Below, in pieces: positions 6,995 to 53,064 of a stretch of DNA of 62,416 nt; positions within the stretch are counted from its first letter, which is position 1; each line of letters begins with the position of its first letter. A program made the translations under genes and the position numbers. Source of the stretch: Patescibacteria group bacterium (GTDB lineage Bacteria; Patescibacteriota; Microgenomatia; JAMCYU01). Location of the stretch: contig JAMCYU010000008.1 in assembly GCA_023473585.1 (NCBI GenBank), positions 1-62,416 on the forward strand, written 5' to 3'. The notes beneath the pieces are model-generated. The model did not search any database. It saw nothing but the letters and a program-made list of their open reading frames with translations, and was not told the DNA's origin.

Positions 6995-7423
6995 TTAAGT
7001 TTGTTTTAATTTTTTCTCTATAAAATAAAAAAGCTCTTCCGCATCAAAAAGGGCCTGTTCTGTTTCCTCTTTTGAATAATCAATAATGGCATCAGCCGGA
7101 TACTTCGTTTCAATGAAATATTCGTTAAGTATTTTACATTGTTTTTCGAATTGCAAAAAATCCCGATCTTTATCCACGCACATTGTCAAAAGCAAAGGAA
7201 GAATATGAATTTTAGGAAGAAATTCCAACCCTTTGGCTAAAAGATAGGCTTTAAGAGCCTTCTCGGTTGCTTGATGGCAAAAATAACATGTCGTATCCGT
7301 ATAACCGCCATGACGATTATTCAAAAATCCCGTATCAAGATCACGCCTGGCTTTTAATAGCCAATCTTCATAATATTTAGATTCGCGAAACTTTTTCTTC
7401 ACAGAAAAGCTTTGCTTAACCAT
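6995..7423 (-). CDS. HEPN domain protein (toxin half of a HEPN/MNT pair)
   Basis: 142 aa and helical, with CHQATEKALKAYLL and a KYP motif. It overlaps the upstream nucleotidyltransferase gene by 8 nt. Confidence 0.75.
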   Translation of the reverse strand: MVKQSFSVKKKFRESKYYEDWLLKARRDLDTGFLNNRHGGYTDTTCYFCHQATEKALKAYLLAKGLEFLPKIHILPLLLTMCVDKDRDFLQFEKQCKILNEYFIETKYPADAIIDYSKEETEQALFDAEELFYFIEKKLKQT

Positions 7424-7763
7424 ACAGAACTTTACCTTTTTGGAGAATTTCGCTTATAAAAACATTGCCCCTGTTGATTTCGTACTCTACCTCCGAGGGA
7501 GTATAAATCAAAAAATCTACGGGGATATTTTGGGCAGGAAGACATGACCAAGCTTCTGTAGCTCTTTTTCCCAATCTGCTCACTAAAGTTTTTTTGATCA
7601 AGAAAAGATCTATGTCATTACTTTGGGTTTTAGAATCAATCATACTACCGAAGAGAATGATCTTTTCCGGCTTGTAGCCCTTTTTAAGAGCAGCTACTAT
7701 TTGAGGAAGTTTTTTAAGATAATCTTCCTTTCTACTCGCGGAGAAACTTTGCTTCTTTAGCAT
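7416..7763 (-). CDS. Minimal nucleotidyltransferase (MNT) domain protein
   Basis: Signature ILFGSMIDSKTQSNDIDLFLI (GS..D.D). Paired with the HEPN gene. Confidence 0.8.
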   Translation of the reverse strand: MLKKQSFSASRKEDYLKKLPQIVAALKKGYKPEKIILFGSMIDSKTQSNDIDLFLIKKTLVSRLGKRATEAWSCLPAQNIPVDFLIYTPSEVEYEINRGNVFISEILQKGKVLYG

Positions 7764-12578: not shown

Positions 12579-12618
12579 CGGCCAATCCTAATTTCTGTCC
12601 GGAAAGGAGAAATAAAAG

Positions 12619-12840
12619 ATGCCAAGTCCTATCGAAGCAAAATCAGTCGTCTTGGTTCTTTTTGGAGTTGACCCCAGAACAGGCAACCGTACGGTTAGTC
12701 CGAAAACACGCCAGTGTCCTCAAGGCTGTTTGGGAAATAGAGCGTTTGACCCTGATAAACAATGCTATTCGGGCATGACGAAACGTGGTTTTAATTGCGA
12801 CGGTAAAGAAATTGTGCCTAATCCTTCTAAAAATATATAA
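12619..12840 (+). CDS. Small protein P1 (73 aa)
   Basis: Track ORF. It is preceded by CTGTCCGGAAAGGA (12595-12608), which includes an AAGGAG SD. N-terminus MPSPIE. Contains CPQGC. Confidence 0.5.
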   Translation: MPSPIEAKSVVLVLFGVDPRTGNRTVSPKTRQCPQGCLGNRAFDPDKQCYSGMTKRGFNCDGKEIVPNPSKNI

Positions 12841-12872
12841 AGTTTTATAAACTGTCCGGAAAGGAAAAATAA

Positions 12873-13091
12873 ATGTCACCACATTTTGAAACGGTTAAGG
12901 GCGATAATATCATGCTTTTCCATAATCCAATCTCGCAGGATAAAGAAGGAGCGAGAAGAAGACACGCCGACGCTCAAAACTATGCCAATGAACACCAGGT
13001 CGAAGTTGTGGAAGTTGCCGACGGTCGGGGCCAACCTTGTGCTGCGTGCAAGGATATAAGCAATCGTTATCAACCGCAAACTCAAAAATAA
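12873..13091 (+). CDS. Small protein P2 (72 aa)
   Basis: Track ORF. It is preceded by an identical CTGTCCGGAAAGGA (12852-12865). N-terminus MSPHFE. Contains CAAC. Confidence 0.45.
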   Translation: MSPHFETVKGDNIMLFHNPISQDKEGARRRHADAQNYANEHQVEVVEVADGRGQPCAACKDISNRYQPQTQK

Positions 13092-13115: not shown

Positions 13116-13346
13116 ATGCCACCAGCTCTTGAATGTCGTCTTTGTCACTATAGAATTAAAACAACTAAAGAACCGGCAACAGTAAAACAAATGGTAAATC
13201 TGCTTACGGCAACCAAAGTCCATGAAGCCGCGGCTGGACATGTAAATAATCAAGAAGAAGAACCCATAAGCCACTGGAATTATTATCCAGAAACACCCAA
13301 AACGCCCGCTTTCAATTCCAAAGACGTCGTTGTTATCAACGGTTAA
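13116..13346 (+). CDS. Small protein P3 (76 aa), paralog of P4
   Basis: Track ORF with SD GAAAGGAAA. MPPALECRLCHYRIKT..ATVKQM..HEAAA aligns with P4 MSPAIECKDCGKRFKT..ATPEEM..HAAV. Confidence 0.5.
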   Translation: MPPALECRLCHYRIKTTKEPATVKQMVNLLTATKVHEAAAGHVNNQEEEPISHWNYYPETPKTPAFNSKDVVVING

Positions 13347-13357
13347 ACCATTCTTCC
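13342..13357. repeat. 16-nt exact copy of the mrdA 3' end (att-like scar, copy 0)
   Basis: GTTAAACCATTCTTCC is identical to 18989-19004. It overlaps the P3 stop codon. Confidence 0.6.
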
Positions 13358-13382: not shown

Positions 13383-14021
13383 TTATAGAAAAAATTCTAC
13401 GTCTTGATTATAAAGATTTGAAGGTTTTTTATTTGGGTGACGTTTTAAATATTGAGCAATTAAGTTGAACCCAACTGTATATCCTGCCCACCGAGGAATT
13501 TTCTCTTTTTTTGATCCAAAAAACCAAGCCTCATGATTGTAAGACAAATCATTATACTGCCCTTTGGCACGTTTGCTTAGATCTCTTAATTGTTTTTTAT
13601 CAAGTGCTACATCCCATTTTTCTGGTCTTTTTTTATTTACTTCGATATCAAAATGGTCCGCTAGCCCTTCGTTTATAAGAGCTCCAAATAGTGTCTGTTT
13701 TTTTCTATATCTATATTTTCTAATGCAATGGTACAATTCATGAGCGATTATCCTCGGAAGATTTTCTTTTAGACTTTCTTCAAGTTTATTGAATTCAGGA
13801 TTTATAGAAATCATTATAAGATTTACTGTTGCGGAATATCCGCCTACCCCCAAATGTTGAATTATTCCCTTTGTACCACCGTCATAAAAAATAATATCGA
13901 CATTATCTATCGGGATAAGTTTAACAATAGAATCTATGGAAGACTTTGAAACCTTTTTTATTGCATGTTCAAAAGGTTTTAATCTGCCACTCGCATGAAG
14001 TATTTGAGGTTTGATGTTCAT
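13383..14021 (-). CDS. DUF2268-like predicted Zn metalloprotease
   Basis: AHELYHCIR (HExxH) followed by NEGLADHF. Confidence 0.7.
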   Translation of the reverse strand: MNIKPQILHASGRLKPFEHAIKKVSKSSIDSIVKLIPIDNVDIIFYDGGTKGIIQHLGVGGYSATVNLIMISINPEFNKLEESLKENLPRIIAHELYHCIRKYRYRKKQTLFGALINEGLADHFDIEVNKKRPEKWDVALDKKQLRDLSKRAKGQYNDLSYNHEAWFFGSKKEKIPRWAGYTVGFNLIAQYLKRHPNKKPSNLYNQDVEFFL

Positions 14022-14123
14022 AATTATATTATTAAAAATAGACTTCAGACTTTTTACCTTGTGACGTTTGAGTTTCTAAAAACTTGACAGGCTTCTGTCA
14101 GATATTTAAAAGGAATTAAACTT

Positions 14124-14648
14124 CTATTGATAACGAATAATTTTCCCTAATACAATTTCACTTTCATATCCATAATTAGTTTTAACAGATTTTACTTTTT
14201 CGCCTTCTACTATATATCCAAGATTTAGAAAAAACCTCAAGGTTTTAGTCGATGTTTTGCGAATTGATACTTCTATTTTTTCTATTTGTATTTGAGGAGC
14301 CATTTTTTCTATCTGAAAAATTAATTTATTTCCAACGTGATTATTTTGATATTCAGGTAATACTCCTATTAATAACAAACCAATGTGTTTTTGAAACTTT
14401 AAAGATCTTCTTGTTAGGGTCACCCAACCGATAATTTTTTGATTAATCAGTGCGAAAATCGTAATATTATGTTTCATATTTTCTTCAAGATAGCCCTCTA
14501 GATTTTCTTCGTTAAATGGATACATATCGGTTAAATAGTTTAACCCATCGTTCATTAAATTATTGAACAATTCAATTGCAGATGGTTCATCTCCGTGTTG
14601 GGCTATTCTAAAAAACAGATTATCCATATTTTTACTTTTTGCATTCAT
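14124..14648 (-). CDS. GNAT family N-acetyltransferase
   Basis: 174 aa with the acetyl-CoA pocket region LLLIGVLPEYQNNHVGNKL. Confidence 0.75.
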   Translation of the reverse strand: MNAKSKNMDNLFFRIAQHGDEPSAIELFNNLMNDGLNYLTDMYPFNEENLEGYLEENMKHNITIFALINQKIIGWVTLTRRSLKFQKHIGLLLIGVLPEYQNNHVGNKLIFQIEKMAPQIQIEKIEVSIRKTSTKTLRFFLNLGYIVEGEKVKSVKTNYGYESEIVLGKIIRYQ

Positions 14649-15258
14649 TATTAAGAATTGAAAATAACAAAGAGTCTCTATACGTCTGATTTCTGGGCAT
14701 CCATATATTGCCCCTTATGTATCCTTCATATTTCATGCCGGTTTTTTGCATCGTCCTTTTTGACGAAATATTACCTGGATCACATGTTGCCCAAATTCTG
14801 TGTAATCCCAGGTCTTCAAATCCAAAATTCAACATCGCCGATTGAACCTCTGTGCCTAGTCCATTGCCCCACTCTTCTTTTTTTAGGAAAATTCCCCACT
14901 CCGCAGATCGATTCGCCATATTCACTTGAAGGCTTGTATATCCTATTAATTCTTTTGACGTTTTTAACATCACTGCTAATCCGTAATTGGTTCTGGGGGT
15001 TCTCTTTTGATTTCCAATAACCCTTAATATAAAAGACTTTGCTTGACCTATCGTAATATATGGTCTCCAAGATACATATTTTGTTACGTCTGGATCAGAA
15101 AATATCTTATACAATGCTTCGGCATCGTCTAGAGCAAATTCACGAATAAATAATCGTGGGGTTATTAATACCAGCTCTTTTCTTGTTGGGAATTCGTTTT
15201 CAATATTTGTCACTATATTTATTACCACACTACGATATTCTCTCCCCCATACTAACAT
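14632..15258 (-). CDS. GNAT N-acetyltransferase, RimJ/RimL-like
   Basis: ITPRLFIREFALDDAEALYKIFSDPDVTKY and WGNGLGTE are typical of the RimJ/RimL subgroup. It overlaps the downstream GNAT gene by 17 nt. Confidence 0.8.
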   Translation of the reverse strand: MLVWGREYRSVVINIVTNIENEFPTRKELVLITPRLFIREFALDDAEALYKIFSDPDVTKYVSWRPYITIGQAKSFILRVIGNQKRTPRTNYGLAVMLKTSKELIGYTSLQVNMANRSAEWGIFLKKEEWGNGLGTEVQSAMLNFGFEDLGLHRIWATCDPGNISSKRTMQKTGMKYEGYIRGNIWMPRNQTYRDSLLFSILNNECKK

Positions 15259-15351
15259 GTTTAAGAGGGAATATATTTGTTCGAATCAATTTTATTTACC
15301 TTGCTCTTCTCACTTTTCCGCTGGTTACGGCTATTTTTTTAGCTCTATTTT

Positions 15352-15474
15352 TCATGTATCCATCGTCACAAGAACATCCTGAGCTGTCTGAATTGCATTC
15401 ACAATCTCTGGCCCCCCAAATTCTTTTGTGTAGCTTACTAATGGCCGAGCATTTTTCATTTCTATATTAATCAT
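15352..15474 (-). CDS. Unlisted 40-aa ORF between the SagB-like and GNAT genes (weak precursor-peptide candidate)
   Basis: Hand translation gives MINIEMKNARPLVSYTKEFGGPEIVNAIQTAQDVLVTMDT*. AGGAGG lies 11 nt upstream, inside the SagB stop region. It has no Cys and few Ser/Thr, so it is doubtful as an azole substrate. Confidence 0.3.
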   Translation of the reverse strand: MINIEMKNARPLVSYTKEFGGPEIVNAIQTAQDVLVTMDT

Positions 15475-15482
15475 TTAATATA

Positions 15483-16244
15483 TCACCTCCTTTCAAAAAT
15501 TTGCCTTTTACCAATTGCTAAGACCATTATGGTGGATTCTTCTATTCCGTCAATATCAAGTAAATTATTGATTTTATCATCCAAAAAACCACCTATTGCA
15601 CAACAGCCTAATTTTAATGACGTAGAAACAAGGTAGGCGTTTTGAGACATGTGCCCAGCATCAATCATGACAAATCGATATCCTCTAAGGCTATATTTCA
15701 TCTCTGACCGCCAAAAAACACTTGTAAATAGTAAAAGCAAGGCTGCGTGTTTTATCCATGGCTGATCAAAGCAGCTAAATATATTAGATTCAAAATTCTT
15801 CCCCGTCCAAAGATATTCTAAAGAATGGCTAATTACATTATAGTGATATATACCTTTATTCAGATTGTTGATATTTAGTATTACTGGATAAACTTCAATC
15901 GGATATCGCGCTCCCGCAGAGGGATAGAATCTATTATTTTTCTCCTTTCTTTGACCGAATGAATAAAAGAGTAAAGAAGAAAAAACGTTTTGGCTCAAAG
16001 ACTCATTGGAAAAATCACGAATACTAGATCTTTTGATTAGACACTTATCTAAAGAGGGTAAATCTTTTATAATGGGGGCTAATTTTATTTTATTAAAACG
16101 AGGGTAGGTTTTATAATGAATTTCCGTCCATTCTCTCGGCCATTCGCCTGGCTTATGTTTATTACCGACAAAATCTCTAGTTTTTGTCTTATCGTGAAAT
16201 TCTTGCGTAGTCGAATATTTAATATGTGGCAAGTTTTTATCCAT
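15483..16244 (-). CDS. SagB-type (nitroreductase-fold) dehydrogenase
   Basis: Hallmark FYPSAGARYPIEVY, within a 253-aa nitroreductase-like layout. Confidence 0.85.
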   Translation of the reverse strand: MDKNLPHIKYSTTQEFHDKTKTRDFVGNKHKPGEWPREWTEIHYKTYPRFNKIKLAPIIKDLPSLDKCLIKRSSIRDFSNESLSQNVFSSLLFYSFGQRKEKNNRFYPSAGARYPIEVYPVILNINNLNKGIYHYNVISHSLEYLWTGKNFESNIFSCFDQPWIKHAALLLLFTSVFWRSEMKYSLRGYRFVMIDAGHMSQNAYLVSTSLKLGCCAIGGFLDDKINNLLDIDGIEESTIMVLAIGKRQIFERR

Positions 16245-16249
16245 GTTTA

Positions 16250-17599
16250 TTATATAAAAGGGTGCGGAATATTATTAATAGGCTTCTCAACCTTATAACC
16301 AAGTAGTTTTGGAACCTCGTATAGTCTTTTAACCCCTAAGTATTTATATGCCTCGTCAACATAAAATGGGTAGAGTTCGGGAATAATAACTTTTATTACA
16401 TAAAATCCTGTAGCTCCTATAGGCTTTGGGGTTAAATTTACAAAATATGTTCTTAAATGATTTTCTTCTAATATTTTTAAGACTTCTTTTAAGATTGGTC
16501 CAGAATCGTAATTTGTAAATTTGGGGTATTTTTTTAATTTTTTCGGTTTTTGTTTTGTCCAGAAATCAAGGTACTTCAATTTAGATTGATCATACCAATA
16601 CATCCCTCTATCTTCTGCACTAGATATTTCTTCTGGATTTATTTTTTGAGTTTTTATATGATGATATTCGTAATATTCTCTCATCCATCCAATGACATGT
16701 AAACTTTCTTCAAAAGAATTGCAAATGGCTTTGTATGGGTCAAGATTAGATTTAAGCCCGATAGTAACAGGGTCACCGATACCAGTTCTATCTATCAACA
16801 GTGTGGCAAATGAAGGAATATTTATATCTGTAGTTATGTCAATAACATGTGCCTCTAGCCTATATCTTTTAGTAATATCAATAATCTTTTGGATTGATTT
16901 TCTATTTATTTTAGATAAATCTACTTTATAACCATGTAATCTCTTCAAATAGTGGATCATGAATGAATCTCTTTCAATTGTTTCATATATTCCTCTTAAA
17001 ATAGCTGCTGCCTTACTTCCTCCGCCGGCTGTTCCAGTGCTTATGTTTAACCTTATATATCTTTCTCCCGCTATCGGTCTATAGTTAAAATAGATCAATT
17101 GCGCCGGTATGAATTTACTGGTTATTGTCTCTGGGCTTATTTCAAAACCCTTCATCCATGAAAAAACAGAATTGTTGTCAAAATTAAATATCTCGAATCC
17201 TTTTTCCAAAAGTTGTTTTTTTGAAAAAGCCGAAAAATCTTTTGGGTCGACCGCTTTGTTTTTTCCTAATTCAGAGAAACTATTCTTTATAAAATTTGAT
17301 TGAAAATATGAACTAGAATAATATCTTTCGAGAGCTTCAGCGACACACTTTAAATATGCTTCCTTTTCAGAAAATAAAGATGTTCCGCCGCTATTGTCTC
17401 GGCTTCTTGGATTTCCGTCACCCGTTTTTTTAGAGACTTCTTTTACCCTACATATAAAATGAAAAAATTTAGGCTCATCATTATACAGGGGAACTCTATA
17501 TATATTTTCGATAAAGCTCAACTGGGGAATAATTTTACAAAAGGAAGTAAGCAACTTGTCAATCGATTTTTCCGAATCGCGGAATAAAAGCTGGTCCAT
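16250..17599 (-). CDS. YcaO-domain cyclodehydratase-like protein
   Basis: The YcaO core starts at SGGTSLFSEKEAYLKCVAEALERYY. The Pro-rich C-terminal tail IPHPFI resembles the PxPxP end of azoline-forming YcaOs. No E1-like or Ocin-ThiF partner was seen. Confidence 0.85.
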   Translation of the reverse strand: MDQLLFRDSEKSIDKLLTSFCKIIPQLSFIENIYRVPLYNDEPKFFHFICRVKEVSKKTGDGNPRSRDNSGGTSLFSEKEAYLKCVAEALERYYSSSYFQSNFIKNSFSELGKNKAVDPKDFSAFSKKQLLEKGFEIFNFDNNSVFSWMKGFEISPETITSKFIPAQLIYFNYRPIAGERYIRLNISTGTAGGGSKAAAILRGIYETIERDSFMIHYLKRLHGYKVDLSKINRKSIQKIIDITKRYRLEAHVIDITTDINIPSFATLLIDRTGIGDPVTIGLKSNLDPYKAICNSFEESLHVIGWMREYYEYHHIKTQKINPEEISSAEDRGMYWYDQSKLKYLDFWTKQKPKKLKKYPKFTNYDSGPILKEVLKILEENHLRTYFVNLTPKPIGATGFYVIKVIIPELYPFYVDEAYKYLGVKRLYEVPKLLGYKVEKPINNIPHPFI

Positions 17600-17612
17600 A
17601 TATAATAATTAG

Positions 17613-17641
17613 ATTATACTACCAATGTAAATTAAATTCAA
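17613..17641 (-). promoter_or_regulatory. Promoter of the YcaO operon (near-leaderless)
   Basis: On the minus strand: TTGAAT (17641-17636), a 17-nt spacer, then TATAAT (17618-17613). The YcaO ATG at 17599 lies only 13 nt after the -10 box. Confidence 0.5.
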
Positions 17642-17700
17642 CAAATTGTATGGGTTGCGGATTTTTTCGCCATTCTTATAAAATAGACTCTCTTTACCTT

Positions 17701-17739
17701 ACCTGTTAAACCACTCTTCCAAAATCTTTTTGGCGATCA
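17701..17739. repeat. 39-nt copy of the mrdA 3' end (att-like scar, copy 1)
   Basis: ACCTGTTAAACCACTCTTCCAAAATCTTTTTGGCGATC has 2 mismatches against 18985-19023. On the minus strand it still encodes ..AKKILEEWFNR*, the same as the true mrdA C-terminus. Confidence 0.8.
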
Positions 17740-18396
17740 CGGTTCGACCGCTGTCCTACCCAATTCCTTGGCTTTTTCACGAAAGAAATTTTTTATTTTA
17801 TCTAGGGTCAAGGGCTTAATCATTTTCGGCAAAGTTTCAAAATCCTCAACCTTCAAAAAATCCGAGGACAGATTATAAGCCTCAATTTCCTGATGAAATT
17901 TTATTCGTACTCCTTCAATCAAATCCCAAAGACCAAATTGCGGTTCAAGATAGTAAAGATCAACAAAATCTTTGATGTCTGTTCTTCTAATAATGGTTGA
18001 AAGTTTATTAATCGCAATGTCCAGAAGGCTATCAACGTAAATTCCGTCCTGCAAAATACTTTTTTCAACTCTTTTATAAGAATAATTATTAAAGTCAATT
18101 TTTAAAAACGGCTCTTTGCCAAAATCAAGAAAAAACATATTAACTGTTTCTATTGTTTCTACTTGATATTTAAAATGGTATTCCTCGCTCAAACTATCCA
18201 TAAAGGAAATAATAATTTGCGGGTCGAATTTCTTTTCTGAAAAGATATCAATATCTTCTGAATAACGATGGTGAAGATAAAATTCCGATAAAGCCGTACC
18301 GCCGGTAAAATAGAAATTTTCGCGGATAAAATCGTTTGTCCTTATCCCATCCAGAATGGTTTTTTGTTCTGGGGTGAGGATTGATATTTGCCCCAT
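17737..18396 (-). CDS. AbiEii/DUF1814-type nucleotidyltransferase toxin
   Basis: FTGGTALSEFYLHHRYSEDIDIFS signature. Confidence 0.8.
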   Translation of the reverse strand: MGQISILTPEQKTILDGIRTNDFIRENFYFTGGTALSEFYLHHRYSEDIDIFSEKKFDPQIIISFMDSLSEEYHFKYQVETIETVNMFFLDFGKEPFLKIDFNNYSYKRVEKSILQDGIYVDSLLDIAINKLSTIIRRTDIKDFVDLYYLEPQFGLWDLIEGVRIKFHQEIEAYNLSSDFLKVEDFETLPKMIKPLTLDKIKNFFREKAKELGRTAVEP

Positions 18397-18608
18397 ATTA
18401 AAAGCTCCATAAGCCGTCTTCTCACGGCAAAAAGATTAGGAACTAATTTGTCCCAGTATTTTTTGACCAAAGACAGTTTTATTTTTTTCTTGCCTGGGCC
18501 GTAATTTAACATTCTCTCCAGAATAAAAATCCGACCCTTTTCGGTTTTTTGCAGTTCCTTCTCATCATAATCCCAAAGATAAGCAGAGCTTTTCTGCGAA
18601 TAAACCAT
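18342..18608 (-). CDS. Small partner protein of the AbiEii-like gene (putative antitoxin)
   Basis: 88 aa with YLWDYDEKEL..ILERMLNYGP. From memory this pattern often sits upstream of AbiEii genes. It overlaps the NTase ORF by 55 nt. Confidence 0.5.
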   Translation of the reverse strand: MVYSQKSSAYLWDYDEKELQKTEKGRIFILERMLNYGPGKKKIKLSLVKKYWDKLVPNLFAVRRRLMELLIWGKYQSSPQNKKPFWMG

Positions 18609-18695
18609 ACGGAGATATTATCTCAAATTTACCTTGACTTGACAAGGAGGAGGAGGAGTAAGATATGGAAAATTCTGTCCGGAAAGGAAAAAATT

Positions 18696-18968
18696 ATGTC
18701 ACCAGCCATTGAATGCAAAGATTGTGGTAAAAGATTTAAAACGCCAGTTACAAACAAAGCCACCCCCGAAGAAATGGCAAGGATGATTAACGAGGCTTGT
18801 TGCCATGCTGCTGTCGAATGTTTAGGCGGTCTTTTTATGAAAGGCCCATCAGGAAAACCACACGCAGAAACAATAGCAGCGACTGGGTATTGGTTTGAAC
18901 CAGTTACCGGCCAAACCCAATATGGATTTGAATTTCATCAGAAAAAACCTATCACTAAGGAAAAGTGA
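18696..18968 (+). CDS. Small protein P4 (90 aa), paralog of P3
   Basis: The start is placed at MSPAIECKDCGK because CTGTCCGGAAAGGA (18675-18688) and TTGACAAGG (18642-18650) precede it exactly as for P1. The track ORF from 18549 would run through this leader. Confidence 0.55.
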   Translation: MSPAIECKDCGKRFKTPVTNKATPEEMARMINEACCHAAVECLGGLFMKGPSGKPHAETIAATGYWFEPVTGQTQYGFEFHQKKPITKEK

Positions 18969-18982: not shown

Positions 18983-20632
18983 CTACCTGTTAAACCATTC
19001 TTCCAAAATCTTTTTGGCAATCGGCGCGGCGACGTTGGAACCTTCACCGCCTCCTTCCACCAAAACGGTTATTGTTAATTCGGGTTCGTCTGCAGGGGCC
19101 GCCTTCGCTGACTTTTCGGCGGGCAAGGGGGCGAAGACCGTAAACCAGGCGTGGGTTTTATTCTGCGGATCGCCGTATTCCGCCGTCCCTGTCTTGCAGG
19201 CCACCGAAATTTTTCTCTCTCCGAACTCCGAACTCTGAACTTTAAACTCAAAAAACGGCCAACCCGTCCCCCCGGTCGAACACGCCTCTTTCATCCCCTC
19301 CTTAATTAAACCGATGGTTTCTTTTTTAAGGCCCAAATCTTTACAGTCCTGGTTTTTCAGTAAAGTCGGCCGGCAAAGCTTGCCGCCATTGGCAATGACA
19401 TTCGTCCAAAAATTCGCCTGGAGGGGCGTCACCTGCAAATCTCCCTGACCAATGGCTAAATGATAGGTGTCGCCCAAATACCACTCGTCCCCGCGGGTTT
19501 TTTTGCGCCACTCCGGCGTCGGCATGACCCCGGCCGCTTCACCGGGCAAGTCAATACCTAAAATTTTGCCGACGCCCATTTTTCCGGCCCATTGAGCCAA
19601 CTTTTCCACTCCCACCCACTCCCCGACTTTATAGAAATAAATGTCGTTTGATCTTTTTAAAGCCGTGACAATATTTAAAAGACCATCGGTTTTGCCGTAC
19701 TGCAGCCAAAACCAATTAGGATATTTATAAGGACCAATCGTAATCACCCCGGTATCCTCAACCAAAGTTTCCTTATCAATTTTTCCGGTTTCCAAACCGG
19801 CGGTGGCCGTGATAATTTTGAAAATTGAACCGGGCGGATAAAGACCGGAAATCGTCCGATCAAACATCGGTTTTTCCAAATCTTCCAGCGTTTTTTGACT
19901 GATTTCGTTAGGATCAAAAGTCGGTGAGGAATATAAGGCTAAAATTTCGCCGGTTTGCGGTTGGGAAACCAAAACGGCGCCCGTTTTTCCTTCCAAAGCG
20001 TCAGCGGCGACTTTTTGAAGGTTTAAATCAATCGTCAAATCCAGTGCCTCTCCGGCAACCGGCTCAATCTTACCTAAAGTTTTAAGTTTAGAGCCGGCCG
20101 CGTCAACTTCAATCAATTCTTTGCCGTCAACACCGCGCAAGGTTTTTTCATGTTGCTCCTCAACACCGGTCCTGCCTTTTAAATCGCCCAGTTTATAATC
20201 CAAGCTTTTTAAGCTTTCGGCGTCAAGTTCCTTATCGGTAACCTCGCCGATATAGCCCAAAACATGAGCTAAAATTCCTCCCCAGGGATATTCTCTTTTT
20301 AAGTCCGTGATTAAACGCCCCGCCTCCGTTCCTCCTTTGGTTTCCATCGCCAAAGCCTCTTCGCGGCTGATGACTTGGCAATCATTTCTTCTTCCCGCTT
20401 GATTGCCGGCATCACATTTTTTATAAACCGGCGTGTTTCTGACCAAAACCTGGCGGTGACGATCATAAATAATGCCCCGAGGGGCTCTGATAAATTTTTC
20501 CTGAATGCGATTACCCTCGGAAAGATCGCGGAAATAACCACCCCGAACCACGGTTAAATCAATTAAACGGATGATCAGAAACCAAAAAGAAAAAATTAAA
20601 AGAAGATAGAAAGGTAAATAGCGCCATCTCAT
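18983..20632 (-). CDS. mrdA: Penicillin-binding protein 2 (elongation transpeptidase)
   Basis: N-terminal TM anchor, then the SxxK (GSIFK), SxN (RSNDIY) and KTGT motifs. Confidence 0.9.
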   Translation of the reverse strand: MRWRYLPFYLLLIFSFWFLIIRLIDLTVVRGGYFRDLSEGNRIQEKFIRAPRGIIYDRHRQVLVRNTPVYKKCDAGNQAGRRNDCQVISREEALAMETKGGTEAGRLITDLKREYPWGGILAHVLGYIGEVTDKELDAESLKSLDYKLGDLKGRTGVEEQHEKTLRGVDGKELIEVDAAGSKLKTLGKIEPVAGEALDLTIDLNLQKVAADALEGKTGAVLVSQPQTGEILALYSSPTFDPNEISQKTLEDLEKPMFDRTISGLYPPGSIFKIITATAGLETGKIDKETLVEDTGVITIGPYKYPNWFWLQYGKTDGLLNIVTALKRSNDIYFYKVGEWVGVEKLAQWAGKMGVGKILGIDLPGEAAGVMPTPEWRKKTRGDEWYLGDTYHLAIGQGDLQVTPLQANFWTNVIANGGKLCRPTLLKNQDCKDLGLKKETIGLIKEGMKEACSTGGTGWPFFEFKVQSSEFGERKISVACKTGTAEYGDPQNKTHAWFTVFAPLPAEKSAKAAPADEPELTITVLVEGGGEGSNVAAPIAKKILEEWFNR

Positions 20633-23566: not shown

Positions 23567-25642
23567 ATGAAAGTGAGCCGGCTTTGTGAGCGAGTGATCG
23601 TCTTTGGCTTTTCTTCTCTCTTTTTCTTCATCCCCCTGCTTTTAACGCCTCTTAATTACGAGCTTTTTGAATATAACAAAATGATGGCTGTTTACGCTTT
23701 AACGACGCTTATCGTCGTCGCCTGGCTTGGCAAAATGGTCGGTCAAAAGAAGATAATTTTTCAAAGGACCCCCTTTGATCTGCCAATTCTGCTCTTTTTC
23801 ACAACGCAATTATTAAGTACCTTTGTTTCATTAGATCGGCACGTTTCGCTTTGGGGCTATTATTCGCGCTTTCACGGCGGTTTGATCTCAACTATAAGTT
23901 ACCTTCTTCTTTATTACGCTTTGGTCAGTAATCTCGATCGCGAAAGGGTCATTAAACTTTTCAAAATCTCTTTATTGTCAGGCTTGCTCGTTTCTTTTTA
24001 CGGCTTTTTGGAGCATTTCGGGATTGACAAAGATCTTTGGGTTCAGGACGTCATGAATCGGGTTTTCTCAACTTTGGGTCAGCCGAATTGGCTCGCCGCT
24101 TATCTTGTCATTCTTTTACCCTTAACCTGGGCATTCATTCTCATTTCCGATGGTAAATCATGGGTGATGGATCGAAGGACAATCTTCTATTATCTAGTAT
24201 CTATAATCTATTATTTGACGCTTCTTTTTACCAAATCCCGTTCGGGTCTTATCGCTTTCGGTCTTACTTATTTGCTTTTTTGGAGCGGCTTTTTTGTTGC
24301 CAATAAACAAAATTTAAAAGTTATCTTGCGTCCTTTTCTTTTCCTTACGCTTTCTTATTTTTTCCTTCTTTTAATCGTCGGCACCCCCTGGACACCGAAA
24401 ATCCAGGAGTTTATTGTAAAACCGGCCCAAACTGCCGTTTTAAAACCCTTGGGAACCGCCATGGAAACCGGCGGCACCGAGTCGGGAGAGATCAGAAAAA
24501 TCGTTTGGAAGGGAGCCTGGGATATTGCCCGCCATTACCCGCTTTTCGGCTCCGGGGTGGAAACCTTTGCTTATGCTTATTATCAATATCGTCCCCAAGA
24601 ACACAATTTGGTCTCCGAATGGGACTTTTTATACAATAAAGCGCATAACGAATATCTAAACTACGCAGCGACGACCGGCTTCGTCGGTTTGGGAAGCTAT
24701 TTACTCTTGATCGGGTGGATCATCGTGTGGAACACCAAGAAAATTTTCAATTTTAAATTAGACCAATTAGAAATTAGACCAATTAGAAATTTGTTAATCG
24801 CTCTTTTCTCCGGTTGGCTCTCGATTTTAATCACCAACTTTTTCGGCTTTTCCGTCGTCACCGTCGCCCTTTACTTTTACTTGATTCCGGGGATGAGTTG
24901 GCTTATTTTCACCAAACAAAACACGGAAAAAGCAATCCCGCAAAATCCTTTGTCGCCAAAACAAAAAGTTTTTTTGCTTCTTTTAGTGTTTTCTCTTTTT
25001 TCTTTTCTTTTTTCACTGGGCAGAATGTGGTATGCCGACACGGTTTTTAACAAAGGTTATCTTTTAACCAAGTCCGACTCTTATAAAGACGCTTATTTTG
25101 CTTATCATGAGGCTATAAATCTTAATCAGGGCGAACCCTTTTACCGGGATGAACTTGCCTATACGGCGGCACTTTTAGCTTCGGCGGCCTGGGAACAAAA
25201 AGAAGCCACTGTCTCTTCGCAATTGGCCGACGAAGCGATTGCCCAAAATAAATTAGCCTTAAAGATTTCACCTTTCAACGTCAATTTTTGGAAAACCCAA
25301 ACTAAGGTTTATTATACCTTAGCCACGATTGATCCCAAATATAACGAGGACGCTTTGACGGCCATTATGAAGGCGCAAAAACTGGCGCCGACGGACGCGA
25401 AAATTTCTTACAATCTGGCTCTGCTTTATGGCAGAAACAATAATCCCAAAATGGCGATCAAAACTTTAGAAGATACCGTTTCCCTAAAGCCAAATTATCA
25501 GGACGCGCGGTTCGCTTTGGCCTTGTATTATAAAGAGGCCGGCCGCCAAGATGAGGCCATAATTCAGCTTCGGTATATTTTGGAAAAAATCTCAAGTGAT
25601 GCCGCTTCGGTTAAAGACAAACTCAAAGAATGGGGTCAATGA
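23567..25642 (+). CDS. O-antigen ligase/Wzy_C-like polytopic protein with C-terminal TPR repeats
   Basis: More than 10 TM helices, TKSRSGLIAF and HNEYLNYAATTG, and TPR-like repeats in the last ~200 aa. Confidence 0.8.
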   Translation: MKVSRLCERVIVFGFSSLFFFIPLLLTPLNYELFEYNKMMAVYALTTLIVVAWLGKMVGQKKIIFQRTPFDLPILLFFTTQLLSTFVSLDRHVSLWGYYSRFHGGLISTISYLLLYYALVSNLDRERVIKLFKISLLSGLLVSFYGFLEHFGIDKDLWVQDVMNRVFSTLGQPNWLAAYLVILLPLTWAFILISDGKSWVMDRRTIFYYLVSIIYYLTLLFTKSRSGLIAFGLTYLLFWSGFFVANKQNLKVILRPFLFLTLSYFFLLLIVGTPWTPKIQEFIVKPAQTAVLKPLGTAMETGGTESGEIRKIVWKGAWDIARHYPLFGSGVETFAYAYYQYRPQEHNLVSEWDFLYNKAHNEYLNYAATTGFVGLGSYLLLIGWIIVWNTKKIFNFKLDQLEIRPIRNLLIALFSGWLSILITNFFGFSVVTVALYFYLIPGMSWLIFTKQNTEKAIPQNPLSPKQKVFLLLLVFSLFSFLFSLGRMWYADTVFNKGYLLTKSDSYKDAYFAYHEAINLNQGEPFYRDELAYTAALLASAAWEQKEATVSSQLADEAIAQNKLALKISPFNVNFWKTQTKVYYTLATIDPKYNEDALTAIMKAQKLAPTDAKISYNLALLYGRNNNPKMAIKTLEDTVSLKPNYQDARFALALYYKEAGRQDEAIIQLRYILEKISSDAASVKDKLKEWGQ

Positions 25643-26673
25643 AAGAAGCGATTCTCTACGAAAAACTAAAAGATGCCTCGGTACGCTGTCATGTCTGTCG
25701 GCGTCAGTGTTTAATTGCCAAGGATCAGGTTGGTTACTGTCAAACCAGAAAAAATTTTGCGGGCAAGCTTTATACGACTGTTTACGGCTTAGTCTCTTCC
25801 TGTTATAACGATCCGATCGAAAAAAAACCGGTTTTCCATTTTAAACCGGGCTCCTTATGTTTTTCCCTGGGGACTTTCGGCTGTAACTTTCGCTGTCGCT
25901 TTTGTCAAAACTGGGAAATCGCCTATGCCGACCCTTCAGCCAAAAACTTTAAGGCTGAAACTTCTAAACTGCAAATAACGCCGGGGGCAGCCTGCAAAAT
26001 GGCTCTTATACAGGACGCCAAAGGTATTGCCTTAACCTACAACGAGCCGGTAATCTGGCTTGAATACGGCCTCGATCTGTTCAAATTGGCCAAAGCGGAA
26101 AACCTTTATACGGTTTGGGTCACCAACGGTTATGCAAGTCAGGAAGCAATTGATCAAATTGCTCCCTATCTTGATGTGTATCGGGTCGATTTAAAATCCC
26201 TTGACGATAAATTCTATCAGCAATTAATCAAAATCCCCCGGGCGGCGGACATTTTCAAAATGACCAAATATGTCCATGATCAATATCCCAAGATTCATCT
26301 TGAGACCGTCACTAATATTGTCCCCGGTTGGAATGATGGCCCCAAAATGCTTACCAAAATCGCCCGGTTTATTAAGGAAAATTTGGGCGTTAAAACGCCA
26401 TGGCACGTTACCCGTTTTTACCCTGATGCCGAAATGCAGGACGTCCCGCCGACTCCCGAAGCAACGCTTTTTAGAGCCAGAGAGATCGGCCTGAAAGAGG
26501 GCTTAAAATTCGTTTATATCGGCAATTTAGCGGTTGAGGGAGAAGACGACACTTTTTGCCCCAAATGCGGCCAATTGGCGATTAAAAGAGACGGCTATCA
26601 AGTCGAAATTTTAGGCGTTGACCAAAAAGGCCATTGTCTAAAATGCCAAGATGACTTAAAAATTATAATGTGA
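25639..26673 (+). CDS. AmmeMemoRadiSam-system radical SAM enzyme
   Basis: N-terminal Cys cluster CHVCRRQC..GYC and CNFRCRFCQN. The start at MKEAIL gives an ATGA overlap with the upstream stop. Confidence 0.85.
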   Translation: MKEAILYEKLKDASVRCHVCRRQCLIAKDQVGYCQTRKNFAGKLYTTVYGLVSSCYNDPIEKKPVFHFKPGSLCFSLGTFGCNFRCRFCQNWEIAYADPSAKNFKAETSKLQITPGAACKMALIQDAKGIALTYNEPVIWLEYGLDLFKLAKAENLYTVWVTNGYASQEAIDQIAPYLDVYRVDLKSLDDKFYQQLIKIPRAADIFKMTKYVHDQYPKIHLETVTNIVPGWNDGPKMLTKIARFIKENLGVKTPWHVTRFYPDAEMQDVPPTPEATLFRAREIGLKEGLKFVYIGNLAVEGEDDTFCPKCGQLAIKRDGYQVEILGVDQKGHCLKCQDDLKIIM

Positions 26674-26687
26674 TAGGATAATTTTAT

Positions 26688-27140
26688 ATGAATGAATTCA
26701 GTGAAACGCCAGTAAAAAGCAGCAACCCGGTCAGACAATTTTTGGGAAAAGTTTTTGATGCCATGGATCCGGTCCCTCCGGTGCCAAAAGAAAATATCAC
26801 TCCCCAGATCACGGCCCAAAGACTCCTTGAGAATATGGGAAATCCGATCAGAGAAAAAGTTCTCGGCCAAGACACTTATTGGGACAATCCGTTTTCTCTA
26901 AGAGACGTTTTAGCTGCCTTAGGACATATCCCTCTTTTTACTGCTCAAGATCACTTTGACGTCTTTCCCCAGGAATGTCAAGCAACCGGAAAAGCTCTGC
27001 AAGAATTGGTTAATCGGGGCGCTTTGCAAATTGTTCCCCAAGAAAAAGCCGATCGTTATAATCAAAGAGTTTATTGGCGCGTTATTGATGAAGCAAAATT
27101 AAAAGAAATCGCCCGGGGAAAACCAACAGCTAAACCTTAA
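26688..27140 (+). CDS. Hypothetical protein (150 aa) inside the AmmeMemoRadiSam cluster
   Basis: Track ORF. No motif recognised. Confidence 0.5.
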   Translation: MNEFSETPVKSSNPVRQFLGKVFDAMDPVPPVPKENITPQITAQRLLENMGNPIREKVLGQDTYWDNPFSLRDVLAALGHIPLFTAQDHFDVFPQECQATGKALQELVNRGALQIVPQEKADRYNQRVYWRVIDEAKLKEIARGKPTAKP

Positions 27141-27143
27141 ATT

Positions 27144-27851: not shown

Positions 27852-28365
27852 TTCTTATCTTTTATTAGCGCAAAAAACCGTTGAGGAGTATGTTAAAACG
27901 GGCCAGGTTATTTCTTTGCCCAGGGACTTGCCGAAAGAAATGCTGACTAAAAAAGCCGGCGTCTTTATTTCAATTCACCAAAAAGACGGTTCTTTAAGAG
28001 GCTGTATCGGAACATTTCTGCCTACGCAGGATAACCTCGCCCACGAGATTGTCCGTAATGCTATCGAATCGGCCACAGCCGATCCCCGCTTTTCGGCAAT
28101 TTTGGCCCAAGAATTGCCTGATTTAGTTTACAGCGTTGATATTCTCTCCGAACCGGAACCGGCCGAGAAAAAAGATCTTAACCCCAAAAAATACGGTCTG
28201 ATTGTCACCACGGCTGACGGCCGCCGCGGCCTGCTTCTGCCCGATTTGGAAGGGGTGGAGACAATCGAGCAACAAATATCTGTCTGCCGGCAAAAAGCCG
28301 GAATTGCCGAAACCGAACCGGTTTCCTTTTTGCGCTTCCGGGTAGAAAGACACGCGGAAAAATGA
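27844..28365 (+). CDS. AMMECR1 domain protein
   Basis: LRGCIGTF motif. The start at MIDSYLL (ATG 27844) overlaps the upstream stop at 27849-27851. Confidence 0.85.
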   Translation: MIDSYLLLAQKTVEEYVKTGQVISLPRDLPKEMLTKKAGVFISIHQKDGSLRGCIGTFLPTQDNLAHEIVRNAIESATADPRFSAILAQELPDLVYSVDILSEPEPAEKKDLNPKKYGLIVTTADGRRGLLLPDLEGVETIEQQISVCRQKAGIAETEPVSFLRFRVERHAEK

Positions 28366-44494: not shown

Positions 44495-44502
44495 TTTAGT
44501 TT

Positions 44503-51403: not shown

Positions 51404-51457
51404 CTTAAAAACCTTAAAATTTTGAAGAATTTTTCTGACGGCTTCAAAACGTTTAAA

Positions 51458-53008: not shown

Positions 53009-53064
53009 ATTAAAATAAAAACAGATCTTATTTTTATTTTATTTGCTTTCAGTAATTCTGTTTT

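What the first reader, a model, noticed from the sequence alone, without database searches (positions are those of the whole stretch)
14124..17641. YcaO plus SagB-type dehydrogenase operon with two GNATs, no E1-like partner and no obvious precursor peptide
Seen:
- The operon has its own promoter (TTGAAT, 17 nt, TATAAT) with an almost leaderless YcaO start.
- The gene order is YcaO (AEALERYY core, IPHPFI tail), SagB-type dehydrogenase (FYPSAGARYPIEVY), a 40-aa ORF with an AGGAGG SD, a RimJ/L-like GNAT and a second GNAT.
- A hairpin plus T-run follows at ~14060-14100 (TGACAG-gctt-CTGTCA).

Established knowledge: a YcaO plus an FMN dehydrogenase make azol(in)e heterocycles in thiazole/oxazole-modified microcin (TOMM) peptides. 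They usually need an E1-like/RRE partner and a Cys/Ser/Thr-rich precursor. RimL-like GNATs such as MccE can confer self-immunity.

Neither a partner nor a convincing precursor is present. The 40-aa ORF has no Cys. The four Cys-containing P proteins flank the cassette but appear to belong to the recipient locus.

Inference: this is either a minimal RiPP system with an atypical substrate, or a YcaO pair acting on a protein target.
Basis: partly seen in the sequence, partly recalled or inferred. Interest (0 to 1): 0.7.

Follow-up and report, generated by a model that had tools for sequence, protein, structure and literature searches.

The report
Azole-peptide cluster with frameshifted precursor gene
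This is an azole-peptide (antibiotic-like) gene cluster of a type already reported in ultra-small Patescibacteria; its "missing" precursor peptide is present but knocked out of frame by one base, and the usual helper protein is truly absent, as in most of its relatives.

Summary
The operon exists as described, on the minus strand: YcaO, SagB, a 40-aa ORF, GNAT, GNAT, a weak terminator, then a DUF2268 Zn-peptidase.

The YcaO is the azoline-forming SagD type (TIGR03604, above its cutoff). It is not E. coli-type.

The claim of "no precursor" does not hold.
- In 9 of 9 relatives of the window's sub-clade, a Cys-rich precursor with an (A/G)RP(L/I/F/Y/M) leader motif sits directly after SagB.
- The 40-aa ORF occupies that position and carries NARPL.
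- After a G6 run (15417..15412), the -1 frame reads ARDCECNSDSSGCSCDDGYMKNRAKKIAVTSGKVRRAR*.
- One extra G would give a 59-aa precursor with the same leader, Cys-core and basic-tail layout as the closest relative.
- G6 is identical in three assemblies, and no intact allele was found. As sequenced, the precursor gene is frameshifted.

The claim of "no E1-like partner" holds.
- A partner HMM finds C proteins beside or fused to nearly all distant TOMM YcaOs.
- It finds none in the 62-kb window, and only 10 among 107 close loci.
- The YcaO model is a bare YcaO domain.

Such LAP clusters in CPR bacteria were reported in 2020, so this is a new member of a known kind. The open question is how the leader is recognised without a partner.

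The parts
17613..17641 (-). Sigma-70-like promoter match TTGAAT-17-TATAAT, 13 nt upstream of the YcaO ATG
   Evidence: (10 of 12 positions match; the count of such sites in the region is not above shuffles) and the sequence.
16250..17599 (-). YcaO cyclodehydratase, SagD/TOMM type; a bare YcaO domain of 449 aa
   Evidence: -: PF02624, and TIGR03604 at 236.5 bits against a cutoff of 219.25.
- E88, E91, R92, E206, E209, R210, E298, P445 and P447 are invariant.
- AF2 model with pLDDT 92.
- matches only the YcaO domains of LynD, MusD and TruD.
15483..16244 (-). SagB-type FMN-dependent azoline dehydrogenase (253 aa)
   Evidence: -: PF00881, and TIGR03605 at 154.7 bits.
- PDB 3eo7 covers residues 5-244; CyaGox, McbC and BmdC also hit.
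- The sequence contains a Lys-Tyr pair in SEMKYSLRGYRF.
15352..15474 (-). 5' part of the precursor gene as it reads now: the 40-aa ORF MINIEMKNARPLVSYTKEFGG|PEIV..., with an AGGAGG SD and the leader motif NARPL
   Evidence: -.
- the motif is shared with all sub-clade precursors.
- the motif occurs only once in the 62-kb window.
15412..15417 (-). G6 homopolymer at the leader/core junction, the site of the 1-nt frame break; G7 would restore the frame
   Evidence: One search shows G6 is identical in three assemblies.
15296..15412 (-). -1-frame continuation of the precursor: core and basic tail ARDCECNSDSSGCSCDDGYMKNRAKKIAVTSGKVRRAR, stop at 15298..15296
   Evidence: -.
- no in-frame start codon upstream of the core.
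- alignment with family precursors.
- one of only 6 Cys-dense windows in six frames of 62 kb.
14632..15258 (-). GNAT1 (Acetyltransf_3, RimJ/RimL-like); candidate peptide N-acetyltransferase for tailoring or self-protection
   Evidence: -.
- 59% identical to a GNAT that lies directly beside the precursor of related locus L093.
14124..14648 (-). GNAT2 (Acetyltransf_1); its start overlaps the end of GNAT1
   Evidence: -.
- 31% identical to a GNAT flanking the related cluster L107.
14085..14100 (-). Weak intrinsic-terminator-like hairpin followed by a T-run
13383..14021 (-).
   Evidence: -: PF10026 at 1e-29.
- a 34%-identical homologue lies next to related cluster L157.
- relatives carry an M16 peptidase in the equivalent role.
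17700..17738 (.). 39-nt copy (95%) of the 3' end of the PBP2 gene (true copy at 18984-19022); upstream boundary of the low-GC YcaO module
   Evidence: repeat family D2; GC 0.31-0.34 inside against 0.42-0.49 in the flanks.
13342..13357 (.). 16-nt third copy of the same PBP2 3'-end sequence; downstream boundary of the module
   Evidence: repeat family D3.

Best explanation
This is a linear azol(in)e-peptide (LAP/TOMM) biosynthetic cassette of the type found in Patescibacteria (CPR) and DPANN archaea. It sits in a low-GC island inserted behind the PBP2 gene of a Patescibacteria MAG.

Intended pathway (inferred from the families):
1. A 59-aa precursor is made. It has a leader with the recognition motif NARPL, the core DCECNSDSSGCSCDDGY and a basic tail.
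2. The YcaO cyclodehydrates its Cys residues (possibly also Ser) to azolines, using ATP.
3. The SagB flavoprotein oxidises the azolines to azoles.
4. The DUF2268 Zn-peptidase removes the leader.
5. One or both GNATs acetylate the product (goadsporin-like tailoring) or detoxify it (MccE-like immunity).

Shown:
- The precursor gene is interrupted by a 1-nt frame break in a G6 run at the leader/core junction.
- The annotated 40-aa Cys-free ORF is therefore only leader plus out-of-frame read-through.
- As sequenced, the cassette cannot make its Cys-rich substrate unless the tract gains a G or the ribosome slips.
- No E1-like/RRE partner is present, here or in the whole sub-clade.

Inferred: the bare YcaO, alone or together with SagB, binds the short conserved leader motif directly.
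For: - **Enzyme identity.** TIGR03604 and TIGR03605 are above their cutoffs. The nearest structures are LynD, TruD and MusD for the YcaO and 3eo7, CyaGox and McbC for SagB.
- **Precursor position.** Nine of nine detected precursors in the window's sub-clade lie directly downstream of SagB on the same strand. These are L001, L003, L008, L089, L090, L093, L094 and L095. All carry (A/G)RP(L/I/F/Y/M) near the N-terminus followed by a Cys-rich core.
- **Window ORF.** The 40-aa ORF has the same position, a strong SD and NARPL.
- **-1 frame.** After G6 it reads ARDCECNSDSSGCSCDDGYMKNRAKKIAVTSGKVRRAR*. The repaired peptide is 59 aa. That equals the length and layout of the precursor beside the closest YcaO (L089, 50% identity): MTRAEKLSARPLVRNMEKLSASSCGCDGCCSGSSGGCACDSCSALSKRVMRRVKEQIKK.
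- **Not chance.** The leader motif occurs once in the 62-kb window. The Cys-dense segment directly behind it is one of 6 in all six frames. The core frame has no start codon of its own.
- **G6 is reproducible.** It is identical in three assemblies: the window, Logan SRR10267473 and GCA_023380895.1.
- **Partner absence.**
  - The C-protein HMM hits nearly all distant TOMM loci, including Streptococcus SagC as a positive control.
  - It gives no hit in the window and hits only 10 of 107 close loci.
  - None of the hits is in the window's sub-clade.
- **No hidden RRE in the YcaO.** The AF2 model (pLDDT 92) aligns end to end with YcaO domains only. LynD residues 351-775 match query 13-441.
- **Accessory genes recur.**
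  - A GNAT1 orthologue (59% identity) lies beside the L093 precursor.
  - A GNAT2-like gene lies by L107.
  - A DUF2268 gene lies by L157.
  - A 258-aa GNAT is found in 8 loci and an M16 peptidase in 41.
- **Prior report.** LAP clusters made of YcaO, nitroreductase, peptidase and precursor have been reported in CPR genomes (PMC7298704).
Against: - The repaired precursor has no statistically significant pairwise similarity to relatives (BLASTP E = 0.91 against L089). The case rests on position, leader motif, composition and layout.
- The core has only 4 Cys, is acidic, and departs from the sub-clade consensus GCDGCCSG..GGC.CDS.
- The gene is out of frame in every available assembly, and no intact allele was found. 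The cassette may therefore be non-productive.
- No known azole-forming YcaO/SagB pair has been shown to work without an E1-like or ThiF-like partner, and a partner elsewhere in the genome cannot be excluded. The first point is from my own knowledge and from the reviews read.
- Cryptic partners that escape sequence searches exist, for example AmiB of streptamidine. Against that, every cassette ORF here has an assigned family.
- The roles of the GNATs and of DUF2268 are inferred from neighbourhood only.
Confidence: 0.8

Rival explanations
1. The frame break is a sequencing or assembly error, or a minority allele. In the living population the tract is G7 and the precursor gene is intact and expressed normally.
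For: - Homopolymers are error-prone.
- All the enzyme genes are intact.
- The three assemblies may derive from related samples of one study.
Against: - G6 is identical in three assemblies built by different pipelines.
- A 6-nt run is short for a systematic error.
- No 59-aa allele exists among 5.8 billion protein clusters; only the 40-aa ORF was found.
- No variant allele was found in JGI metagenome contigs.
- Comparable lesions at the leader/core junction occur in other loci. L101 has a 1-nt deletion relative to the near-identical L104, and L134 has an in-frame TAG.
Confidence: 0.1
2. The G tract is a functional switch. Either tract length varies (phase variation, G6 = OFF and G7 = ON), or a low level of -1 ribosomal or transcriptional slippage yields small amounts of full precursor, keeping a potentially toxic product tightly limited.
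For: - The break lies exactly at the leader/core junction, in a homopolymer.
- At least three other relatives have intact enzymes but precursors broken at or near the same junction: L095, L101 and L134.
- G-rich runs are common in these Gly/Cys-rich genes, for example G9 in L090.
Against: - There is no canonical in-phase X XXY YYZ heptamer; the 0-frame codons are UUU GGG GGG CCA.
- There is no stimulatory RNA structure downstream (z = -0.74).
- The G run is not conserved in relatives (L089 DNA).
- G6 is short for efficient slippage (my own knowledge).
- The lesions in the other loci are of different kinds, which looks more like decay.
Confidence: 0.1
3. An E1-like/RRE partner is still required but is encoded elsewhere in the genome (in trans), so the system is a canonical three-component synthetase with a dispersed gene.
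For: - About 10% of close relatives (10 of 107) do have a C protein directly upstream of the YcaO. L097 among them has the same EAKEF-type leader motif as the C-less loci.
- All characterised azole synthetases with a SagB-type dehydrogenase use a partner (reviews read).
Against: - There is none within 62 kb here, nor within +/-8 kb in L003-L005.
- The entire 13-locus sub-clade lacks it.
- The cassette looks horizontally mobile, with low GC and flanking repeats, so a trans-encoded partner would not travel with it.
- Patescibacterial genomes are small (my own knowledge).
Confidence: 0.25
4. The Cys-free 40-aa peptide as annotated is the real substrate. It would be modified at Ser/Thr to (methyl)oxazol(in)es or by another YcaO chemistry.
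For: - It has a strong SD and the leader motif.
- It contains S14, T16, T30, T37 and T40.
Against: - The 0-frame tail PEIVNAIQTAQDVLVTMDT resembles no family core. All detected relatives are Cys-rich.
- The -1 frame reproduces the family core and basic tail too well for chance.
Confidence: 0.04
5. The YcaO/SagB pair acts on a protein target, such as the flanking Cys-containing P proteins or a housekeeping protein, rather than on a RiPP precursor.
For: - No partner is present.
- YcaOs that modify proteins exist, such as the one that thioamidates McrA (text; PDB 6pe3 hit).
Against: - The YcaO is SagD-type; it is below cutoff for methan_mark_1 and TIGR00702.
- A dehydrogenase partner implies azole formation.
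- A dedicated precursor gene is present in the cassette and in relatives.
- The P genes lie outside the repeat-bounded module, on the other strand, with their own shared 5' UTR, and lack the leader motif.
Confidence: 0.03

Closest known systems
LAP clusters of Candidate Phyla Radiation genomes (Sharrar et al. 2020, mBio, PMC7298704; example Microgenomates_ANG_785)
   Same: - YcaO with an adjacent nitroreductase/SagB gene.
- A small Cys/Ser-rich precursor next to them and a peptidase nearby.
- A CPR host.
- No E1-like gene listed among the three modification enzymes.
- That paper counted 110 such clusters, 89 of them with the nitroreductase adjacent.
   Different: - The peptidase here is DUF2268 rather than M16.
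- Two GNATs replace the APH kinase and His-phosphatase pair typical of the window's own sub-clade.
- The precursor lies downstream of SagB and is frameshifted.
- The product and activity are unknown in both cases.
Canonical TOMM synthetases: microcin B17 McbBCD and streptolysin S SagBCD
   Same: A SagD-type YcaO, a SagB/McbC-type FMN dehydrogenase, and a Cys/Ser/Gly-rich core behind a leader.
   Different: There is no McbB/SagC (E1-like, RRE-bearing) scaffold. The HMM positive control finds it in L069 (Streptococcus) and nearly all distant loci, but not here. McbD is only a weak sequence match (4.7e-10).
Cyanobactin heterocyclases LynD, TruD and MusD
   Same: These are the best sequence and fold matches of the YcaO domain (E 1e-44 to 1e-47; Foldseek TMq 0.75).
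   Different: Those enzymes carry about 310-350 N-terminal residues, the E1-like and RRE domains. The window protein starts where LynD residue ~351 aligns and has no such domains.
Bottromycin 'standalone' YcaOs
   Same: They act without an E1-like, ThiF-like or TfuA partner (review text).
   Different: - The bottromycin precursor has a follower rather than a leader.
- One of its YcaOs makes a single thiazoline and the other a macroamidine.
- No SagB-type oxidase is paired in the same way.
- Sequence relatedness to the window YcaO was not tested here.
Acetyltransferases of peptide antibiotics: GodH (goadsporin N-acetylation), MccE (microcin C immunity), PA3944 (polymyxin acetylation)
   Same: - GNAT enzymes sit inside or beside a RiPP or peptide-antibiotic context.
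- GNAT1 is RimJ/RimL-like and hits PA3944 at 4.7e-07.
- N-terminal acetylation is a known LAP tailoring step (text).
   Different: No orthology to GodH or MccE was tested. The function here is inferred from neighbourhood recurrence only.

Membership tests
TOMM / LAP azol(in)e RiPP cluster | YcaO cyclodehydratase of the SagD (azoline-forming) type | tested here: met
   TIGR03604 scores 236.5 bits against a cutoff of 219.25. The C-terminal PHPF(I/L) and the Glu/Arg clusters are invariant in the clade.
TOMM / LAP azol(in)e RiPP cluster | SagB/McbC-type FMN dehydrogenase adjacent to the YcaO | tested here: met
   TIGR03605 scores 154.7 bits against a cutoff of 78.4. The gene starts 6 nt after the YcaO stop. 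PDB matches are 3eo7, CyaGox and McbC.
TOMM / LAP azol(in)e RiPP cluster | E1-like (C) or Ocin-ThiF-like (F) partner carrying the leader-binding RRE, adjacent or fused | tested here: not met
   - The C-protein HMM gives no hit at E<=1 in six frames of the 62-kb window.
- The YcaO is a bare domain.
- SagB residues 5-244 are covered by 3eo7, leaving no extra domain.
- The partner is described as present 'in most cases' rather than universally.
TOMM / LAP azol(in)e RiPP cluster | Adjacent gene for a precursor with a leader and a Cys/Ser/Thr-rich core | tested here: inconclusive
   It is present as a gene remnant. Leader and core are encoded contiguously but in different frames, separated by a G6 run. 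An intact reading requires +1 G.
TOMM / LAP azol(in)e RiPP cluster | Product contains thiazol(in)e or oxazol(in)e rings | not testable with these tools
   This needs mass spectrometry of an expressed product.
CPR-type LAP cluster (Sharrar et al. 2020) | YcaO plus adjacent nitroreductase, a precursor and a peptidase in a CPR genome | tested here: met
   - The host is a Patescibacteria group bacterium MAG.
- The YcaO clusters with Microgenomates, Woesebacteria and Roizmanbacteria homologues.
- The peptidase is DUF2268.
- The precursor is frameshifted.
Non-RiPP or thioamide YcaOs (E. coli YcaO; McrA-Gly thioamidation with or without TfuA) | Match to the TIGR00702 or TIGR03266 models; TfuA neighbour or C-terminal TPR-like domain | tested here: not met
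   TIGR00702 scores 46.9 against 75.65, and TIGR03266 scores 61.3 against 365. No TfuA appears in the operon or in the annotation of L086. E. coli YcaO is only a distant fold match (TMq about 0.5).
Cyanobactin heterocyclase (LynD/TruD type) | Fused N-terminal E1-like and RRE domains preceding the YcaO domain | tested here: not met
   The protein is 449 aa, and the alignment covers only LynD residues 351-775. The model shows one helix and two strands before the core.
AbiE-type toxin-antitoxin (flanking module, not part of the RiPP system) | AbiEii nucleotidyltransferase with an overlapping upstream small partner gene | tested here: met
   PF08843 scores 2.5e-16 for 18396..17737. The 88-aa upstream ORF overlaps it and is weakly DUF6922-like (E 0.009, below cutoff).

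The most novel reading that the evidence does not exclude
A whole clade of CPR/DPANN azole synthetases consists of only a bare YcaO domain and a SagB dehydrogenase. These would read a five-residue leader motif, (D/E/N)(A/G)(R/K)(P/E)(L/I/F), with no RRE or E1-like scaffold. That would make them the smallest natural azole-installing machinery. Their precursor genes may also be recurrently silenced at the leader/core junction, as in the window, L095, L101 and L134, which would be a population-level on/off control of a self-toxic peptide.
Probability: 0.35. Interest if true: 0.6.

Novelty: new member of a known kind. Interest (0 to 1): 0.42.

Why it matters
**For annotation.** The case shows how a one-base frame break in a homopolymer hides a RiPP precursor. 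The cluster then looks "precursor-less" or "protein-targeting".

**For enzymology.** The partner-less YcaO/SagB clade holds about 90% of 107 close loci, with a short conserved leader motif. It is a compact two-enzyme candidate for testing RRE-independent leader recognition, and possibly a minimal azole-installing toolkit.

**For ecology.** It adds one more azole-peptide cassette, with acetyltransferases in place of the usual kinase/phosphatase pair, to the small secondary-metabolite repertoire of episymbiotic Patescibacteria. The cassette lies in a mobile-looking island next to a toxin-antitoxin pair.

Tried and rejected
- **Variant G-tract alleles in DNA.** A pattern search allowing any tract length of 4-10 found nothing in JGI metagenome contigs.
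- **Intact 59-aa precursor as protein.** A search of 5.8 billion protein clusters returned only the 40-aa ORF.
- **Programmed frameshift.** There is no in-phase slippery heptamer, and the RNA downstream folds no better than shuffles (z = -0.74). Rejected as the main reading.
- **Hidden RRE in the YcaO N-terminus or in SagB.** The AF2 model, Foldseek and PDB profile alignments show only the core folds.
- **Cryptic partner among cassette ORFs.** Every ORF of 88 aa or more between the flanking repeats has a family assignment.
- **P proteins as substrates.** They have no Pfam or NCBIfam hit and no leader motif, and they lie outside the repeat-bounded module.
- **Rfam scan of the window.** It found only two tRNAs at 31.5 kb and nothing for the shared P-gene 5' UTR.
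- **Clade signature YxDEPKF in the YcaO N-terminus.**
  - It is present in 50 of 63 C-less loci against 5 of 58 loci with a C protein.
  - It tracks phylogeny.
  - It was itself one of the two search patterns used to collect the loci.
  - It is therefore not evidence for a leader-binding site.
- **Technical failures.** The first locus search with the 35-sequence alignment failed for lack of a conserved stretch. The Burkhart 2017 YcaO review is not held in the library.

Full report
**1. What is in the sequence**

On the minus strand, 17599..14124 encodes five ORFs.

| Gene | Coordinates | Length | Assignment |
|---|---|---|---|
| YcaO | 17599..16250 | 449 aa | PF02624, 1.4e-47; TIGR03604 "TOMM_cyclo_SagD", 236.5 bits (cutoff 219.25) |
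| SagB | 16244..15483 | 253 aa | TIGR03605, 154.7 bits (cutoff 78.4) |
| small ORF | 15474..15352 | 40 aa | none |
| GNAT1 | 15258..14632 | 208 aa | Acetyltransf_3, 2e-31 (RimJ/RimL-like) |
| GNAT2 | 14648..14124 | 174 aa | Acetyltransf_1, 6e-11 |

- The promoter-like TTGAAT-17-TATAAT (17641..17613) and the hairpin plus T-run (14100..14085) are found by the pattern scan. Promoter-like matches are not enriched over shuffles in this AT-rich DNA.
- Upstream lies an AbiEii toxin gene with an overlapping 88-aa partner.
- The host is a Patescibacteria group MAG, GCA_023380895.1.
- The cassette has GC 0.31-0.34 against 0.42-0.49 in the flanks.

**2. The precursor is there, but out of frame**

Neighbourhoods of YcaO homologues were fetched, giving 107 close loci at 32-50% identity. 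Most carry a 40-110-aa Cys-rich ORF beside YcaO/SagB.

In the neighbour-joining sub-clade containing the window, every detected precursor lies directly downstream of SagB on the same strand. The sub-clade is L095, L089, WIN, L091, L008, L003, L001, L094, L092, L090, L093, L157 and L147. Every one of these precursors carries an (A/G)RP(L/I/F/Y/M) motif near its N-terminus: EARPL, EARPI, SARPL, EGRPF (twice), EGRPY, DARPI and EARPM.

The window's 40-aa ORF is in exactly that place and reads MINIEMK-NARPL-VSYTKEFGG....
- After the G6 run at 15417..15412, the -1 frame reads ARDCECNSDSSGCSCDDGYMKNRAKKIAVTSGKVRRAR*.
- With one more G the gene would encode a 59-aa peptide.
- The precursor beside the closest YcaO (L089, 50% identity) is also 59 aa and has the same layout: MTRAEKLSARPLVRNMEKLSASSCGCDGCCSGSSGGCACDSCSALSKRVMRRVKEQIKK.
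- In the whole 62-kb window the leader motif occurs once. The Cys-dense segment right behind it is one of six in all six frames.
- That frame has no start codon of its own.

Pairwise BLAST of such short, low-complexity peptides is not significant (E = 0.91). The argument therefore rests on position, motif, composition and layout.

**3. Is the frame break real?**

- The G6 tract and its surroundings are base-for-base identical in three assemblies: the window, a Logan assembly of SRR10267473, and the NCBI MAG.
- No alternative tract length was found in JGI metagenome contigs.
- No intact 59-aa protein exists in the 5.8-billion-cluster protein collection; only the 40-aa ORF is there.
- There is no canonical in-phase slippery heptamer, and the downstream RNA folds no better than shuffles (z = -0.74).
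- The G run is not conserved in relatives.

My reading is that the precursor gene carries a genuine inactivating frameshift in the sequenced population. Smaller probabilities go to an assembly artefact and to a phase-variable or slippage switch.

Other relatives also have intact enzymes with broken precursors:
- L101 has a 1-nt deletion relative to the near-identical L104, at the leader/core junction.
- L134 has an in-frame TAG between leader and core.
- L095 has no in-frame start.

**4. The missing partner is real and clade-wide**

- L009, a Bathyarchaeota relative, has a ThiF-family gene just upstream of its YcaO.
- An HMM built from it and its homologues finds a C protein adjacent to or fused with the YcaO in nearly all distant TOMM loci (L024-L085). 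These include the SagC of Streptococcus pseudopneumoniae, which serves as a positive control.
- The same HMM finds nothing in any frame of the 62-kb window.
- Only 10 of the 107 close loci have a hit, and none is in the window's sub-clade.
- The YcaO AlphaFold model is confident (pLDDT 92, pTM 0.94). Before the catalytic core it has only one helix and two strands.
- Foldseek and a profile search against the PDB match only YcaO domains. Query residues 13-441 align with LynD residues 351-775, after the E1-like and RRE domains of LynD.
- SagB residues 5-244 are covered by PDB 3eo7.
- All other cassette ORFs have family assignments, so a cryptic AmiB-like partner is not hiding in the cassette.

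A partner encoded in trans elsewhere in the genome cannot be excluded.

**5. Accessory genes**

- The window's sub-clade usually carries an APH-family kinase and a His_Phos_1 phosphatase.
- A larger sister group carries an M16 peptidase (41 loci), sometimes with a 258-aa GNAT (8 loci).
- The window instead has two GNATs and DUF2268.
- These are not random neighbours:
  - A 59%-identical GNAT1 orthologue lies 28 bp from the L093 precursor.
  - A GNAT2-like gene flanks L107.
  - A DUF2268 homologue flanks L157.
- GNAT1's nearest solved relatives are RimL/RimJ-like enzymes and the polymyxin acetyltransferase PA3944.

I infer that DUF2268 is the leader peptidase and that the GNATs acetylate the peptide, either as tailoring (as in goadsporin) or as self-protection (as with MccE). 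The apparent swap of kinase/phosphatase for acetyltransferases suggests a group-transfer step on the product. This is inference only.

**6. How it most likely works**

- Shown: the enzyme families, the gene order, the frameshifted precursor, the absence of a partner, and the recurrence of the accessory genes.
- Inferred from the families:
  1. The YcaO cyclodehydrates the four Cys (possibly also Ser) of the core, using ATP.
  2. SagB oxidises the azolines to azoles with FMN.
  3. The leader is removed.
  4. The product is acetylated.
- Inferred from the conserved leader motif together with partner absence: the leader is recognised directly by the YcaO or by a YcaO-SagB complex.
- As sequenced, the cassette cannot supply the Cys core and is probably silent.

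**7. Comparison with what is known**

- Sharrar et al. 2020 described LAP clusters (YcaO, nitroreductase, peptidase, adjacent precursor) in CPR genomes. They counted 110 clusters in 93 genomes (PMC7298704). The window's cassette belongs to that group.
- It differs from McbBCD and SagBCD in lacking the scaffold. It differs from LynD and TruD in lacking the fused E1/RRE domains. It differs from E. coli-type and McrA-type YcaOs by model scores.
- Partner-free YcaOs are documented for bottromycin. I found no paper characterising a partner-free YcaO/SagB azole synthetase.

**8. Verdict**

- The interpretation of "no precursor, atypical or protein substrate" is wrong.
- The "no partner" observation is right and generalises to the clade.
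- Novelty: a new member of a known kind.
- Interest is moderate. The value lies in the frameshift explanation and in pointing to a compact, testable partner-less azole synthetase clade.

Noticed in passing
window 18984-19022, 17700-17738, 13342-13357: The last ~39 nt of the PBP2 gene (..IAKKILEEWFNR*) are repeated at 95% identity between the AbiE module and the YcaO operon. A 16-nt third copy follows the DUF2268 gene. The repeats bound two low-GC modules, as if cassettes had been inserted serially at the PBP2 3' end. No integrase is visible.
   Followed up: partly
window 17737-18608; L019 4020-4661; L107 5035-5924: An AbiEii-type toxin gene with a small overlapping upstream partner sits next to the LAP cassette in the window. 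It also sits next to two unrelated related cassettes (L019, L107), which suggests that TA modules travel with these islands.
   Followed up: partly
window 12595-12633, 12852-12890, 18675-18713 (genes starting at 12619, 12873, 13116, 18696, + strand): There are four small (72-90 aa) plus-strand genes starting M(S/P)P. Three share the 5' UTR CTGTCCGGAAAGGA. None has a Pfam, NCBIfam or Rfam match. One copy lies inside the inserted region and three lie beyond it. Their function is unknown.
   Followed up: partly
L101 2201-2332 against L104 2417-2593; L134 ~1790-1950; L095 6560-7240: Other related clusters have intact YcaO genes but broken precursors. L101 has a 1-nt deletion at the leader/core junction relative to the near-identical L104. 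L134 has an in-frame TAG between the leader (..DAKEFNLRQ) and the core. L095 has no in-frame start and also a SagB frameshift at a G5 run.
   Followed up: partly
L093 291-1832; L001 4983-6553; L094 2651-4221; L007 8143-9779: In the window's YcaO sub-clade the usual accessory pair is an APH-family kinase plus a His_Phos_1 phosphatase. In L093 they sit in the same operon orientation upstream of the YcaO. This points to a phosphorylation/dephosphorylation step on the peptide, which the window's cassette replaces with two acetyltransferases.
   Followed up: no
L097 1404-2048; L166 4475-5008; L167 992-1525: Some close relatives have unusually short (177-214 aa) C-protein-like ORFs just upstream of the YcaO. 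These may be truncated or RRE-only remnants, and could be intermediates in partner loss.
   Followed up: no
window ~6995-7763 and ~25630-28365: According to the annotation of overlapping contigs, the window carries two further systems. One is a Polbeta (MNT)/HEPN pair. The other is an AmmeMemoRadiSam-like set of genes: radical SAM, a 150-aa unknown, LigB/Memo-like and AMMECR1.
   Followed up: no
window 41744-60583, minus strand: There is a run of very large ORFs (916, 914, 693, 468, 840 and 1463 aa) of unexamined function.
   Followed up: no
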